DNA from: Clostridia bacterium
GTDB lineage: Bacteria > Bacillota > Clostridia > TANB77 > CAG-508
Direction of reading: 5' to 3'
DNA: 64,000 bases
Assembly: GCA_022794615.1 (NCBI GenBank)
Contig: JAAWFD010000021.1
Location: forward strand, 12,808 to 76,807
Position numbers and translations under genes: made by a program. Below the pieces are notes generated by a model. That model had not been told where the DNA came from. It was given only the letters and a program-made list of their open reading frames with translations, and did not search any database. Positions within the stretch are counted from its first letter, which is position 1; each line of letters begins with the position of its first letter. Of the stretch, positions 67 to 47,140 are shown piece after piece.

Positions 67-156
67 TGTGTCATGGGGACGTTCTTTTTGACACAGTTTA
101 TTATATTTTATTATTATAAAATTTTGTGTGTCAAAAAGAACGTCCCCATGACACAC
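67..156. mobile_element. REP/MITE-like element: two perfect 29-bp inverted repeats (TGTGTCATGGGGACGTTCTTTTTGACACA) separated by a 32-bp AT-rich spacer; identical to the termini of the RayT element at 46112..46989
   Basis: 67-95 and 128-156 are exact reverse complements; same 29-mer bounds the transposase gene at 46276..46959. Confidence 0.7.
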
Positions 157-174
157 AAAAAATAAAAGCGTGTA

Positions 175-1566
175 TTAATTACACGCTTTTATTAACATTG
201 GACCAATTTCAGTAACTGTACCAGCACCTAAAGTTAACACAATATCATTTTCAGAAATATTATCTTTTAAGAAATTAACACAATCATTAAAGTCTGGAAT
301 ATAAATAGCTTTTTTGTTAAACTTGTTAATTTCATTAACTAAATCTTCAGCGGATACACCAAATCTATTAGATTCTCTAGCAGCATAAATATCAAGAACA
401 ATTACATTATCAAAATTAAGTAAAGCTTTAGTAAAGTCAGAAAGTAGCATTCTAGTTCTGCTATAAGTATGAGGCTGAAATACAACCCAAGATTTGTTAT
501 ATTTTTTAGACATTAGTGCTTTAGCAGTAGCAATAATTTCAGTAGGATGATGACCATAGTCATCATAAACGCTAGCCCCATTAGCTAATCCTTTAAACTC
601 GAAACGTCTAGCAGCACCTTTAAATTTTAAAACAGCATTCTTAATATCTTGTTTAGAAATACCATAATAATCACATAAAGCAATACAAGATAAGCAATTT
701 AAAACATTGTGCATACCAGGTACTGAAAGCTTAATTCTTTCATAAAATTCATTGTTGTGATATACATCAAATTCTGCATAACCATTATCATCAAAATTAA
801 TATTAACTGCAAAAAAGTTGGTATTTTTATTAGTAATACCATAAGTAATGCATGTAGCATTAGTATGTTGTGATAAATCTAAACAATTAGAATCATCTCC
901 ATTTACAACTAAAAGACCATCATCAGGTAAAATCTTAACATATTTTACAAAGGCATTTTTTATATTCTCAAAATTTTTAAAATAATCTAAATGATCATTA
1001 TCAATATTTAAAATAATTTCTGCTCTAGGACTAAACTTTAGAAAACTTTCAACATATTCACAAGACTCAATTATAAAATACTCACTATTTCCAACCATAT
1101 AATTACCACAGATTTGTGACAAATATCCACCAACTTGAATGCTAGGTTCTTTAAGAGCCTCTAAAAAACAAAGTGCAACCATTGAGGTAGTAGTAGTTTT
1201 ACCATGAGTACCTGAAATTGCAATAGTATCATTATAACATCTTGTAATTTCACCTAAAAAGTCAGACCTTTCAATAGTAGGAATGCCAAGCTCTTTAGCA
1301 TGGATAAGTTCTGCATTATCTTGGCTAATTGCAGCTGTATATACAACAACATCAATATCTTTTGTAATGTTTTCAGAATTATGACCTATAAAAACTCTAA
1401 TACCATTTGCGTCTAATTTATTTGTAATTTCGGATACAGCATTATTACTTCCAGTAACTTCAAATCCCCATTGATGAAGTATTTCAGCAATACCACTCAT
1501 ACTTACGCCACCAATTCCTATCATATGTATTTTTTTGTACTTTTTAATTCTATCTATATTTGGCAT
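175..1566 (-). CDS. murC: UDP-N-acetylmuramate--L-alanine ligase
   Basis: 463 aa; N-terminal IHMIGIGGVSMSGIAEIL and Mur ligase central GTHGKTTTTSM motifs. Confidence 0.9.
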   Translation of the reverse strand: MPNIDRIKKYKKIHMIGIGGVSMSGIAEILHQWGFEVTGSNNAVSEITNKLDANGIRVFIGHNSENITKDIDVVVYTAAISQDNAELIHAKELGIPTIERSDFLGEITRCYNDTIAISGTHGKTTTTSMVALCFLEALKEPSIQVGGYLSQICGNYMVGNSEYFIIESCEYVESFLKFSPRAEIILNIDNDHLDYFKNFENIKNAFVKYVKILPDDGLLVVNGDDSNCLDLSQHTNATCITYGITNKNTNFFAVNINFDDNGYAEFDVYHNNEFYERIKLSVPGMHNVLNCLSCIALCDYYGISKQDIKNAVLKFKGAARRFEFKGLANGASVYDDYGHHPTEIIATAKALMSKKYNKSWVVFQPHTYSRTRMLLSDFTKALLNFDNVIVLDIYAARESNRFGVSAEDLVNEINKFNKKAIYIPDFNDCVNFLKDNISENDIVLTLGAGTVTEIGPMLIKACN

Positions 1567-27501: not shown

Positions 27502-27535
27502 AATCAAAAGAAAAAGACTTTGTGTGATAGGGACG

Positions 27536-27600
27536 TGTGTCATGGGGACGTACATTTTGACATAATATAGGTATGTCAAAATGTACGTCCCCATGACACA
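27536..27600. repeat. REP-like perfect hairpin: 29-bp stem, 7-nt loop; variant of the RayT terminal repeat
   Basis: 27536-27564 is the exact reverse complement of 27572-27600; shares TGTGTCATGGGGACGT...TTTTGACA with the 46112/46961 repeats; a degenerate partial copy tgtgtgatagggacg lies at 27521-27535. Confidence 0.75.
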
Positions 27601-27630
27601 AAAAATAAATAGAAAGAGAAATATTAAAAT

Positions 27631-46111: not shown

Positions 46112-46989
46112 TGTGTCATGGGGACGTTCTTTTTGACACACACCAATAAATACTTCAAAAAAATCATAAAATTAGAAAATAGAACAAATTTCGACACAAC
46201 AACAAGGAATAATATGATATAATAAAGATAATTTTTATATCATATTATTTTTTATCTAATTTAAAAGGAGGCACAATGCCAAGATTTCCAAGAAGTTATA
46301 TCAAAACATTTTTATTTCATATAGTAACCCAAGGAATTAACAAGAGTTACATATTTGAAAATTCAAACGACATAAAATATTATATAAACATAATGAATCT
46401 ATTAAGTGAAAACTGCGAAGTTAAAATACTAGCATATTGTGTGATGAATAATCATACACATATGCTAGTAGAAACTGAGCAGGTTGAAAAATTAAGTAAA
46501 TATATGCAACGATTAAATACAAAGTATGCAAAATATTACAACAAGAAATATGAAAGAGTAGGATATGTATTTAGAAATAGATATTGTTCACAAGGAATTT
46601 ATAATGAAGAACAGTTATATAATTGTATGATGTATATTTACAATAATCCAGTAAAAGCAGGTATATGTAAAGAAGCAAAAGACTATCCATATTCTAATTA
46701 TAAAGAAATAAAAGTAAAATTAAAAGAAGAATATACATTTATAGATGCAAATGAAGAGCCACCTATCGAATGTAAAAATATAATAAAAAAGTTTTTAAAA
46801 GAAAATAATATAAATTTACAAGAATTAAAAGAAGATAGCCAAAGACTTGAAGAGCTGATAACCATATTGAAAAAAGACAATGGTATATCATTAAGAAAGA
46901 TATCTGAACAATTAGAGCTAAATAGAGAAAAAGTAAGAAGACTATATAATAAGCAATAAGTGTGTCAAAAAGAACGTCCCCATGACACA
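46112..46989 (+). mobile_element. RayT-type (IS200/Y1 HuH) transposase element bounded by perfect 29-bp inverted repeats
   Basis: IR-L 46112-46140 TGTGTCATGGGGACGTTCTTTTTGACACA; IR-R 46961-46989 is its exact reverse complement; single gene inside. Confidence 0.75.
46276..46959 (+). CDS. REP-associated tyrosine transposase (RayT/TnpA_REP, IS200-like Y1 HuH), with C-terminal HTH-like extension
   Basis: HuH motif NNHTHMLVE; Y1 motif MMYIYNNPVKAGI (YIxxNPVKAG); 227 aa. Confidence 0.7.
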   Translation: MPRFPRSYIKTFLFHIVTQGINKSYIFENSNDIKYYINIMNLLSENCEVKILAYCVMNNHTHMLVETEQVEKLSKYMQRLNTKYAKYYNKKYERVGYVFRNRYCSQGIYNEEQLYNCMMYIYNNPVKAGICKEAKDYPYSNYKEIKVKLKEEYTFIDANEEPPIECKNIIKKFLKENNINLQELKEDSQRLEELITILKKDNGISLRKISEQLELNREKVRRLYNKQ

Positions 46990-47140
46990 TCCCATTGACA
47001 TTGAAACAAAATGTGGTAAAATATAAAAAAACAAAAAATAAGAAAAGGAGAAGTTAGTTTATAATATGTAATATATATATGTACATATAAAATTTAAGGC
47101 ATATAAATTATTAACATAATAACTAATGTAAAAAATAAGA

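What the first reader, a model, noticed from the sequence alone, without database searches (positions are those of the whole stretch)
27521..27606. REP hairpin variant with compensatory changes on both arms (29-bp perfect stem) after nrdD
Arms 27536-27564 and 27572-27600 are exact reverse complements. Relative to the RayT-terminus 29-mer, the centre is changed (CGTACATTTTGACATA instead of CGTTCTTTTTGACACA) identically on both arms. This implies the unit is copied as a palindrome, or is selected for stem pairing, rather than the two arms decaying independently. A degenerate partial copy (tgtgtgatagggacg) directly precedes it. It may act as the nrdD terminator.
Basis: seen in the sequence. Interest (0 to 1): 0.55.

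Follow-up and report, generated by a model that had tools for sequence, protein, structure and literature searches.

The report
Mirror-mutated REP doublet hairpin after nrdD
This is a pair of inverted copies of the short repeat that flanks the genome's single REP-associated (RayT-type) transposase gene. Its two arms carry the same three mutations most likely because the arms of such doublets correct each other, so it is a clear example of a known kind of element and not a new one.

Summary
Arms 27536-27564 and 27572-27600 are exact reverse complements with a 7-nt loop. Both differ from the RayT-flanking 29-mer at the same three positions (17 T>A, 19 T>A, 28 C>T), and a 13/15 partial copy precedes them.

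The element is a REP/TIR doublet (REPIN-like) of a RAYT/TIRYT system in a Clostridia MAG. The transposase at 46276-46959 passes NCBIfam's REP-associated tyrosine transposase cutoff and is flanked by the canonical 29-mers.

Independent decay of the arms is excluded (P about 9e-6). I found no second locus carrying the variant, but the genome itself could not be searched.

The neighbouring doublet (67-155) gives the best clue. In a sister lineage (about 95% DNA identity) its arms are still perfect, both carry a private T>A change, and its spacer is inverted. So the arms interact in place, by template switching or arm-to-arm recombination.

The three changes weaken the arm's own small hairpin, which is the likely RayT substrate. 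The hairpin lacks a U-tract and fails the terminator criteria, though it replaces half of an ancestral terminator. Abutting outer-end stubs like 27521-27535 recur across the family (11/55 units against 0.4% at random).

Mirrored changes in REPINs are already published. This is a new member of a known kind, of modest interest.

The parts
27536..27564 (+). Left arm: variant REP/TIR unit TGTGTCATGGGGACGTACATTTTGACATA. It has 3 changes from the canonical unit, at positions 17, 19 and 28.
27565..27571 (.). 7-nt loop (ATATAGG) between the arms
27572..27600 (-). Right arm: the same variant unit on the minus strand, an exact reverse complement of the left arm
27521..27535 (+). Outer-end stub: a 13/15 copy of the first 15 nt of the unit, ending after ..GGGACG and abutting the left arm. 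This is a recurrent family feature.
27510..27520 (+). GAAAAAGACTT: the likely remnant of the 5' half of an ancestral intrinsic terminator. Relatives L141-144 have AAAAGGACTTTAAAAAGTCCTTTT at the homologous place.
   Evidence: inference from aligning the spacers by eye
67..155 (.). Second doublet (D1). It has canonical arms 67-95(+) and 127-155(-) and a 31-nt spacer, and lies between convergent genes next to the murC terminator hairpin.
46112..46140 (+). Canonical unit flanking RayT on the left (the outer end points away from the gene)
46276..46959 (+). RayT/TIRYT gene, 227 aa. Y1 HUH transposase with HTH at residues 60-62 and YIYNNP at 120-125.
46961..46989 (-). Canonical unit flanking RayT on the right
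46990..47003 (-). TCCCATTGACATTG: a stub resembling the outer end of the TTGTCAA/TTGACAA-type unit found in more distant relatives (L149). It is probably an older generation of the repeat.

Best explanation
The hairpin is a doublet of two inverted copies of the 29-nt repeat unit that flanks the genome's single RayT-type (Y1/HUH) transposase gene. It is a REPIN-like, non-coding relative of that 'TIRtron'.

Each unit is itself a small stem-loop. It has a 7-bp stem (TGTGTCA/TGACACA) and a loop that presents the conserved GGGGACG motif, which is presumably what RayT recognises on single-stranded DNA (inferred).

The doublet sits in the nrdD-mnmA spacer on top of a half-deleted intrinsic terminator.

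The three changes are the same on both arms because the arms of such a doublet do not evolve independently. A change in one arm is either reverted or copied to the other arm by replication template switching or by recombination between the arms. This process also flips the spacer (shown for the neighbouring doublet, inferred for this one).

The changes shorten the unit's own stem to 5 bp. This copy is therefore probably a poor transposase substrate and is effectively fixed in place (inferred).

Its effect on transcripts, if any, would be that of a very stable 3'-UTR hairpin, acting as an exonuclease barrier or a factor-dependent attenuator. It would not act as a classical intrinsic terminator (inferred).
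For: Identity. The same 29-mer brackets a 227-aa ORF in inverted orientation. That ORF hits Pfam Y1_Tnp at 1.3e-12 and NCBIfam NF047646 'REP-associated tyrosine transposase' at 85 bits against a cutoff of 80. Its only solved relative is E. coli TnpA(REP) 4ER8, aligned across the YIYxNPVK motif. HTH 60-62 and YIYNNP 120-125 are present. In the sister lineage the gene is syntenic (upp-RayT-ftsY) with identical canonical flanks, although the protein is only 88% identical.

Unit structure. On 16 unit types, 90.8% of cells pair against 78.5% in shuffles. Six of 8 pairs show changes on both sides, 0 of 500 shuffles reach the observed values, and slid controls give 19-53%.

Non-independence of the arms. 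P is about 9e-6 for independent decay.

In-place arm interaction. The orthologous doublet D1 in the sister lineage (9 contigs from 9 samples) has perfect arms that both carry T8>A, while that lineage's RayT flanks keep T8. Its spacer aligns to the inverted window spacer (score 12, 0 of 1000 shuffles) much better than to the direct one (score 4, 119 of 1000). In this clade there are 4 mirrored and 0 unmirrored arm changes across 4 doublets, and each variant is private to its locus.

Spacing. A relative with 57-90 nt between its arms at the same nrdD-mnmA site has drifted arms (87-89% complementary plus an indel). That fits a process that depends on arm proximity.

Weakened substrate. As ssDNA the canonical arm folds at -4.0 kcal/mol (z = -2.25) and the variant arm at -2.0 (z = -0.38).

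Literature. Compensatory changes across REPIN hairpins are common (PMC3116915). Template switching creates and maintains perfect stems, makes multi-base 'compensatory' changes in one event and inverts loops (PMC8794818; for E. coli quasipalindromes, PMC7202029).
Against: The genome could not be searched. My only genome-collection scan used a 14-mer that was too short and was swamped by chance hits. The metagenome scan found only termite-gut relatives. Other copies of the variant may therefore exist.

The D1 result can also be read as excision and re-insertion of a symmetric unit in the opposite orientation. That would favour transposition of the doublet as a unit over in-place homogenisation.

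No ancestral or intermediate state of this hairpin was observed, because the sister lineage has the identical sequence.

The hairpin lies in a 249-nt stretch with no differences, while its flanks differ about every 20-25 nt. This could reflect purifying selection on the structure.

The covariation set was small and assembled by hand.
Confidence: 0.6

Rival explanations
1. The variant is one member of a propagating subfamily. RayT copies the doublet as a palindromic unit (a REPIN in the strict sense), so both arms simply inherit the master copy's sequence.
For: In other genomes, whole arm-spacer-arm units recur with the same variable block and a conserved spacer (L010 pairs at 2394/2496 and 5045/5147). 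Two block types coexist in one locus, each concordant between its arms. REPINs are argued to be the replicative unit in Pseudomonas (PMC3116915). The flipped D1 spacer is also what re-insertion of a symmetric unit in the opposite orientation would produce.
Against: No second locus with the variant block was found in about 1.1 Mb of fetched DNA, which includes 64 kb of this genome and about 57 kb of the sister genome. The two doublets in the window have different spacers (7 and 31 nt), so neither is a copy of the other. The variant weakens the unit's own hairpin, the presumed transposase substrate. In the closest RayT relatives most units are singlets or direct tandems and not doublets.
Confidence: 0.22
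2. The long stem is functional, as RNA in the nrdD 3' UTR or mnmA leader or as a DNA cruciform. Natural selection fixed compensatory substitutions to keep it paired.
For: The 129-nt spacer, and 249 nt in all, are identical between lineages whose flanking genes are 93-97% identical. Other intergenic regions are 86-99% identical. By contrast the D1 doublet changed between the same two lineages. The element replaces an ancestral terminator. E. coli REPs can act as partial Rho-dependent terminators and mRNA stabilisers (bioRxiv 10.64898/2026.03.23.713779).
Against: Three separate two-step compensations with no surviving intermediate are unlikely compared with one templated event. The same alignment contains longer difference-free runs (717, 710 and 511 nt), so a recombination patch could explain the identity. 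No Rfam family matches. Selection for pairing does not explain the inverted spacer at D1.
Confidence: 0.13
3. It is simply the Rho-independent terminator of nrdD.
For: It is a very stable hairpin immediately after the stop codon. Relatives without the repeat have a classical terminator at the homologous position.
Against: The stem is followed by AAAAAATAAAT with no U-tract, and it is not reported by the terminator scan on either strand. The mnmA start codon is only 30 nt downstream with no evident promoter in between, which suggests read-through. The sequence is a member of a dispersed repeat family and not a locus-specific hairpin.
Confidence: 0.05

Closest known systems
REPINs (REP doublets forming hairpins) with their RAYT, as defined in Pseudomonas fluorescens (Bertels & Rainey 2011, PMC3116915)
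   Same: Two inverted copies of the unit that flanks a single-copy, vertically inherited RAYT gene form a long hairpin in ssDNA or RNA. Changes mirrored across the hairpin are described there as common. Excision leaves a few bases of the outer end behind, which may relate to the stubs seen here.
   Different: There is no GTAG tag. The unit has a short stem with a large 15-nt loop carrying GGGGACG. The spacer is not conserved between copies (7 and 31 nt). The density is low (3 sites in 64 kb). Genome-wide over-representation and mobility could not be tested. The host is a Clostridia MAG.
TIRtrons / TIRYTs (RAYT-like tyrosine transposases flanked by long terminal inverted repeats; Di Nocera et al. 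2013, PMC3733652)
   Same: A RAYT-like gene is bracketed by long (29-nt) inverted repeats. The repeats carry a G-rich motif close to the published GGGGWSAS. They also occur elsewhere as singles, dimers and clusters at moderate abundance. The class is found in species without GTAG REPs.
   Different: The window's core GGGGACGT matches GGGGWSAS at 6 of 8 positions. Relatives have GGGGACGG (7/8) and GGGGACAG (8/8). I could not see that paper's Figure 9, so I could not check whether this exact TIR type or any Clostridia member is listed.
Group 1 RAYTs (Bertels, Gallie & Rainey 2017, PMC5581495)
   Same: This group is reported in Clostridia, and its flanking 16-mers occur only about 12 times per replicon. 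That fits the low density seen here.
Quasipalindrome correction / short-range template-switch mutation (PMC8794818, PMC7202029)
   Same: It explains perfect stems, several 'compensatory' changes arising at once, and loop inversion. All three are seen in the doublets of this clade.
   Different: It is a general mutational mechanism and not an element family. Its action here is inferred from comparing two lineages and was not observed directly.

Membership tests
REPIN (REP doublet forming a hairpin) | Two repeat units in inverted orientation that pair into a hairpin | tested here: met
   29/29 complementary with a 7-nt loop. -33.6 kcal/mol as ssDNA, z = -13.3.
REPIN (REP doublet forming a hairpin) | The units are the same sequence as the repeats flanking a RAYT gene | tested here: met
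   26/29 identity to the 29-mers at 46112-46140 and 46961-46989 that bracket the RayT ORF.
REPIN (REP doublet forming a hairpin) | Over-represented, multi-copy population in the genome | tested here: inconclusive
   There are three sites in 64 kb (7 hits of the 15-mer against 0.12 expected). The rest of the genome could not be reached. RayT-bearing Logan contigs all end inside the repeat, as expected for a multi-copy sequence.
REPIN (REP doublet forming a hairpin) | Characteristic, conserved spacing between the two units across copies | tested here: not met
   7 nt here, 31 nt at 67-155 and 34 nt in the sister's D1.
REPIN (REP doublet forming a hairpin) | Evidence of mobility (excision or insertion polymorphism) | tested here: inconclusive
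   Both doublets are present in both lineages. Lineages without a repeat at nrdD-mnmA also lack most of nrdD, so they are not clean empty sites. The D1 orientation flip could be re-insertion or recombination.
Classical GTAG-tagged REP (group 2/3 RAYT substrates) | Conserved GTAG tetranucleotide 5' of the palindrome (PMC8266576, PMC3733652) | tested here: not met
   The bases preceding the stem are TTAA, GACG and TTTT at the three sites. No GTAG appears at the unit ends in any relative.
Classical GTAG-tagged REP (group 2/3 RAYT substrates) | The unit is itself a stem-loop | tested here: met
   The stem of 7-8 bp is supported by covariation. The canonical arm folds at -4.0 kcal/mol, z = -2.25.
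RAYT / TnpA(REP) protein | Y1 HUH fold with an HUH motif and a catalytic tyrosine, scoring above the curated family threshold | tested here: met
   Pfam Y1_Tnp 1.3e-12. NF047646 at 85 bits against a cutoff of 80, while the IS200 model scores 23 bits against 55. HTH 60-62 and YIYNNP 120-125. Aligned with 4ER8 across that motif.
RAYT / TnpA(REP) protein | Single copy, vertically inherited at a fixed chromosomal position | tested here: met
   There is one copy in the window. The gene has the same upp-RayT-ftsY-UPF0182-priA context in the sister lineage at 88% protein identity. Copy number in the whole genome was not testable.
TIRtron / TIRYT (Di Nocera 2013) | RAYT-like gene flanked by long terminal inverted repeats unrelated to GTAG REPs | tested here: met
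   Perfect 29-nt inverted repeats lie 135 nt upstream and 1 nt downstream of the ORF.
TIRtron / TIRYT (Di Nocera 2013) | TIRs share the GGGGWSAS motif | tested here: inconclusive
   GGGGACGT matches at 6/8. Relatives have GGGGACGG (7/8) and GGGGACAG (8/8). The motif is stated for 'some' TIRs only.
Rho-independent terminator | G+C-rich stem followed directly by a U-tract on the transcribed strand | tested here: not met
   The stem is followed by AAAAAATAAAT, and the terminator scan reports nothing there.
MITE of a DDE-type IS | Terminal inverted repeats bounded by a target-site duplication | tested here: not met
   No direct repeat flanks any of the three sites (GGGACG|..|AAAAAA, ATTAA|..|CAAAAA, ATTTT|..|TCCCAT). 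The associated enzyme is a Y1 transposase.

The most novel reading that the evidence does not exclude
The abutting outer-end stubs always break after ..GGG or after ..GGGGACG, in at least 8 genomes from several phyla. One locus also holds a mini-palindrome made of two such stubs fused at ACGT. Together these may mark where this class of RayT cuts and rejoins DNA: inside the loop-presented GGGGACG motif of the unit itself. Studied RayTs instead cut at a flanking dinucleotide chosen by a GTAG guide. If so, this widespread GTAG-less class uses a different rule for choosing its cleavage site, and the stub at 27521-27535 is the scar of an earlier cut-and-join event at this site.
Probability: 0.25. 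Interest if true: 0.5.

Novelty: new member of a known kind. Interest (0 to 1): 0.3.

Why it matters
REP/RAYT systems have been studied almost only in Proteobacteria. This locus gives a clean, small example from a gut Clostridia lineage. It belongs to the GTAG-less, TIR-type class, whose unit architecture (a short stem plus a loop-presented GGGGACG) is shared across distant phyla.

Comparing two lineages at about 95% identity shows all three footprints of arm-to-arm templating on 65-89-bp elements: perfect arms, private mirrored changes and a flipped spacer. This is a caution that 'compensatory' changes in such hairpins are not by themselves evidence of selection for structure.

Practically, it tells annotators that hairpins like this one are repeat-family members sitting on eroded terminators and are not terminators themselves.

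Tried and rejected
1. Genome-collection scan with the 14-mer TGTCATGGGGACGT. About a dozen hits were real relatives in other phyla, but the source genome was not recovered.
2. Metagenome scan with a 24-specified-base pattern. It returned only four termite-gut stretches and none from this organism.
3. Viral contigs, plasmids and phages gave no match.
4. Rfam gave only far-sub-threshold matches to generic miRNA-precursor hairpin models. I rejected a known RNA family.
5. An nhmmer profile search for decayed units in the window and sister loci found nothing beyond the six arms and the stubs.
6. I considered that Logan contigs running through the variant hairpin show it is single-copy. I rejected this because 29-nt arms are shorter than k-1 = 30, so they would not break a k = 31 assembly in any case.
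7. I considered that the variant is the ancestral form, because a distant relative's doublet at the same site (L145: ACGTAGATAG) shares A at two of the three variant positions. Two A/T positions in a 28% G+C genome are too weak a basis, so I left this open.
8. Promoter reading. TTGACA lies in every arm and TGaCATAAT spans the arm-loop junction, but the scan found 5 promoter-like sites against 3.3 expected, which is not significant.
9. DDE-type MITE. Rejected, because there is no target-site duplication and the enzyme is a Y1 transposase.

Full report
**1. The observation**

The sequence is as described. Arms 27536-27564 and 27572-27600 are 29 nt, 100% complementary and separated by 7 nt. The stem dominates the fold of the region as RNA (-54.5 kcal/mol, z = -12.3) and as ssDNA (-33.6 kcal/mol, z = -13.3).

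The 29-mer TGTGTCATGGGGACGTTCTTTTTGACACA occurs four more times in the window. Two copies form a second inverted doublet at 67-95/127-155. The other two, at 46112-46140(+) and 46961-46989(-), flank an ORF. The variant arms differ from this canonical form at positions 17 (T>A), 19 (T>A) and 28 (C>T), on both arms alike.

The preceding 15-mer 27521-27535 is a 13/15 copy of the arm's outer end. Two Logan assemblies and a sister-lineage ENA assembly carry the same hairpin base for base, so it is not an assembly artefact. If the arms decayed independently, three exactly mirrored substitutions would have a probability of about 9e-6.

**2. What the repeat belongs to**

The ORF 46276-46959 (227 aa) is a Y1/HUH transposase:
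- Pfam Y1_Tnp scores 1.3e-12.
- It passes NCBIfam's curated threshold for 'REP-associated tyrosine transposase' (85 bits against 80) and fails the IS200 model (23 against 55).
- Its only solved relative is E. coli TnpA(REP) 4ER8, aligned over the YIYxNPVK motif.
- HTH at residues 60-62 and YIYNNP at 120-125 are present.

The source is an NCBI 'Clostridia bacterium' MAG. The window is 27.9% G+C.

In a sister lineage (RayT 88%, MnmA 91%, MurC 96% identical; DNA about 95% over 14 kb) the gene lies in the same upp-RayT-ftsY context. It is flanked by exactly the canonical 29-mers. This is the single-copy, vertically inherited behaviour described for RAYTs (PMC5581495).

**3. The unit**

I defined membership only by the loop core GGGGACG in AT-rich loci. 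On that basis the unit is a 6-8-bp stem, most often (T)GTCA(A)/(T)TGAC(A), enclosing a loop. The loop begins T-GGGGACG and continues with 6-7 variable bases. The same architecture turned up in Coriobacteriaceae, Eubacteriales Family XIII, Lachnospiraceae and Endomicrobium contigs among the hits of an otherwise noisy scan.

The stems differ between lineages but stay complementary (TGTGTCA/TGACACA, TTGTCAA/TTGACAA, TGGTAAT/ATTACCA, GGCA/TGCC). On 16 unit types:
- 90.8% of cells pair, against 78.5% in shuffles.
- Six of 8 pairs have changes on both sides.
- No shuffle in 500 reaches the observed values.
- Slid controls give 19-53%.

The set is small and was chosen by hand.

There is no GTAG tag, the hallmark of the studied group 2/3 REPs (PMC8266576). 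The best-fitting published description is the 'TIRtron/TIRYT' class of Di Nocera et al. (PMC3733652). These are RAYT-like genes flanked by long inverted repeats, some with a GGGGWSAS motif. The repeats also occur as singles, dimers and clusters at moderate abundance. Group 1 RAYTs are reported in Clostridia with about 12 copies of the flanking 16-mer per replicon (PMC5581495). That matches the low density here.

**4. Why both arms carry the same changes**

Mirrored changes across REPIN hairpins are already reported as common (PMC3116915).

The genome scan was wasted on a pattern that was too short, and the organism is absent from the metagenome collection. In the roughly 1.1 Mb I did fetch, the variant block occurs only at this locus. 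A profile search found no decayed copies.

The informative result came from the control doublet D1 (67-155). In the sister lineage, nine contigs from nine samples show it at the orthologous site with perfect arms. Both arms carry T8>A, although that lineage's RayT flanks keep T8. Its spacer matches the inverted window spacer (score 12, 26 of 31 bases, 0 of 1000 shuffles) far better than the direct one (score 4, 119 of 1000). Fifteen bases at its left edge are also missing, and these are the 3' half and T-tract of the murC terminator hairpin.

So within the divergence of two lineages at about 95% identity, a doublet of this family acquired a private mirrored change and a flipped loop. Across the four doublets of this clade there are four mirrored changes and none unmirrored. 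Each variant is private to one locus.

These are the footprints of arm-to-arm templating, by short-range template switching or by recombination between the arms (PMC8794818, PMC7202029). A relative whose doublet at the same nrdD-mnmA site has 57-90 nt between its arms shows drifted arms (87-89% complementary, one indel). That fits a proximity-dependent process.

I therefore favour in-place homogenisation for the hairpin at 27536-27600. There are two caveats. The D1 pattern could also arise from excision and re-insertion of a symmetric unit. No intermediate state of this particular hairpin was seen.

**5. Consequences of the three changes**

C28>T turns the second stem pair of the unit's own hairpin into G·T. 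As ssDNA the canonical arm folds at -4.0 kcal/mol (z = -2.25), and the variant arm at -2.0 (z = -0.38, a 5-bp stem). The changes thus degrade the structure RayT presumably reads while leaving the arm-to-arm stem perfect. This copy is probably no longer a good transposase substrate (inference).

**6. Terminator question and local history**

On the nrdD strand the stem is followed by AAAAAATAAAT. The terminator scan reports nothing there on either strand, and mnmA starts 30 nt downstream.

Two related lineages (MnmA 90% and 86% identical) have no repeat. At the homologous place they have a classical terminator, AAAAGGACTTTAAAAAGTCCTTTT. In the window only the 5' half (GAAAAAGACTT) survives, followed by the stub and the doublet.

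The hairpin therefore occupies the site of an eroded terminator but is not itself a canonical one. By analogy with E. coli REP325, which is a partial Rho-dependent terminator and an mRNA stabiliser (bioRxiv 10.64898/2026.03.23.713779), a role as a 3'-end barrier or attenuator is possible. That role was not tested.

The 129-nt spacer lies in a 249-nt run with no differences from the sister lineage. nrdD and mnmA are 97.1% and 93.0% identical, and other spacers are 86-99%. This hints at constraint, especially since D1 did change. But longer identical runs elsewhere in the alignment leave a recombination patch as an alternative.

**7. The partial copy**

Eleven of 55 unique full units, from at least 8 genomes in several phyla, carry an abutting stub of their outer end. 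The rate at random positions is 0.41%. The stubs end either after ..GGG or after ..GGGGACG. The copy at 27521-27535 is of the second kind.

The RayT right flank shows the same thing in the sister lineage (CCCATGACACA twice). In the window, an older-type stub (TCCCATTGACATTG) sits outside the current unit. Bertels & Rainey saw excision events that leave about 6 bp of the outer end behind, so the stubs may be scars of such events. Whether they mark the RayT cleavage point is an open and testable idea.

**8. Verdict**

The element is a REP/TIR doublet of a RAYT/TIRYT system, so it is a new member of a known kind. The mirrored changes are real and non-random, but they have precedent and a sufficient mutational explanation. 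Propagation of the variant is not shown, and a classical terminator function is not supported. Interest is modest.

Noticed in passing
L010 2386-2511, 4794-4902, 5045-5150; L026; L033; L065; L103; L133-L136; L003; L096: The same unit architecture (stem TGTGTCA/TGACACA, loop T-GGGGACG plus 6-7 variable bases) occurs in Coriobacteriaceae, Eubacteriales Family XIII, Lachnospiraceae, Endomicrobium and other MAGs with 36-64% G+C. The variable block differs between genomes. In most doublets the paired arms carry the same block.
   Followed up: partly
window 27521-27535; L137 right RayT flank; L149; L153 10707-10734; L157 9830-9850; L003 2006-2052; L026 915; L033 7490-7506; L103 132-148; L072: Truncated copies of the unit's outer end abut full units in 11 of 55 unique units, against 0.4% at random positions. 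The break always falls after ..GGG or after ..GGGGACG. These may be scars of cut-and-join events.
   Followed up: partly
L010 2320-2350: A mini-palindrome, TGTGTCAGCGGGGACGTCCCCCAGACACA, looks like two outer-end stubs fused head to head at the central ACGT. It is as if the inner parts of a doublet had been removed.
   Followed up: no
window 46990-47003: Just outside the right RayT-flanking unit lies TCCCATTGACATTG. It resembles the outer end of the TTGTCAA/TTGACAA-type unit used by RayT relatives at 63-66% identity, and may be a relic of an earlier version of the repeat.
   Followed up: no
L161 11393-11489 versus window 67-195: In the sister lineage the doublet next to murC has lost 15 nt (CACGCTTTTATTTTT). 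These are the 3' half and T-tract of the murC terminator hairpin GCGTGTA-ATTAA-TACACGC, which is intact in the window. Both doublets of this clade are thus associated with half-deleted terminators in at least one lineage.
   Followed up: partly
L141 1554-1895, L142, L143 3034-3372, L144: In two related lineages (MnmA 90% and 86% identical) the gene upstream of mnmA is only a 112-113-aa ATP-cone ORF in place of the 718-aa nrdD. nrdD appears to be truncated or lost there.
   Followed up: no
L145 9866-9985 (also L146-L148): A more distant relative (MnmA 79%) has a different, partly decayed doublet at the same nrdD-mnmA position (TGTCAATGGGGA[C/T]GTAGATAGTG[A/G]CAA, with 57-90 nt between the arms). 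Either this spacer is a recurrent landing site or the doublet is old.
   Followed up: partly
L153, L155, L157, L158 (whole loci): In RayT relatives at 63-64% identity the units (TGTCAATGGGGACGGAGAATTTTGACAA) are denser, at 4-7 per locus of 13-21 kb. They are mostly singlets or direct tandems and not inverted doublets.
   Followed up: no
L149 1125-1160 and 1960-1990: The two units flanking this RayT relative differ in their variable block (GTGATTT on the left, TTCTTTT on the right). The two ends of a TIRtron therefore need not be identical.
   Followed up: no
window 27556-27566, and every arm: Each arm contains a perfect TTGACA. In the variant, the arm-loop junction reads TGaCATAAT, which resembles an extended -10 element. 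The C28>T change improves the match from CACAAT to CATAAT. The promoter scan was not significant (5 sites against 3.3 expected).
   Followed up: partly
L123-L132: All ten Logan contigs carrying the identical RayT end 27-30 nt past its stop codon, inside the right-hand unit. This is as expected if a 30-nt repeat shared with other loci breaks k = 31 assemblies.
   Followed up: no
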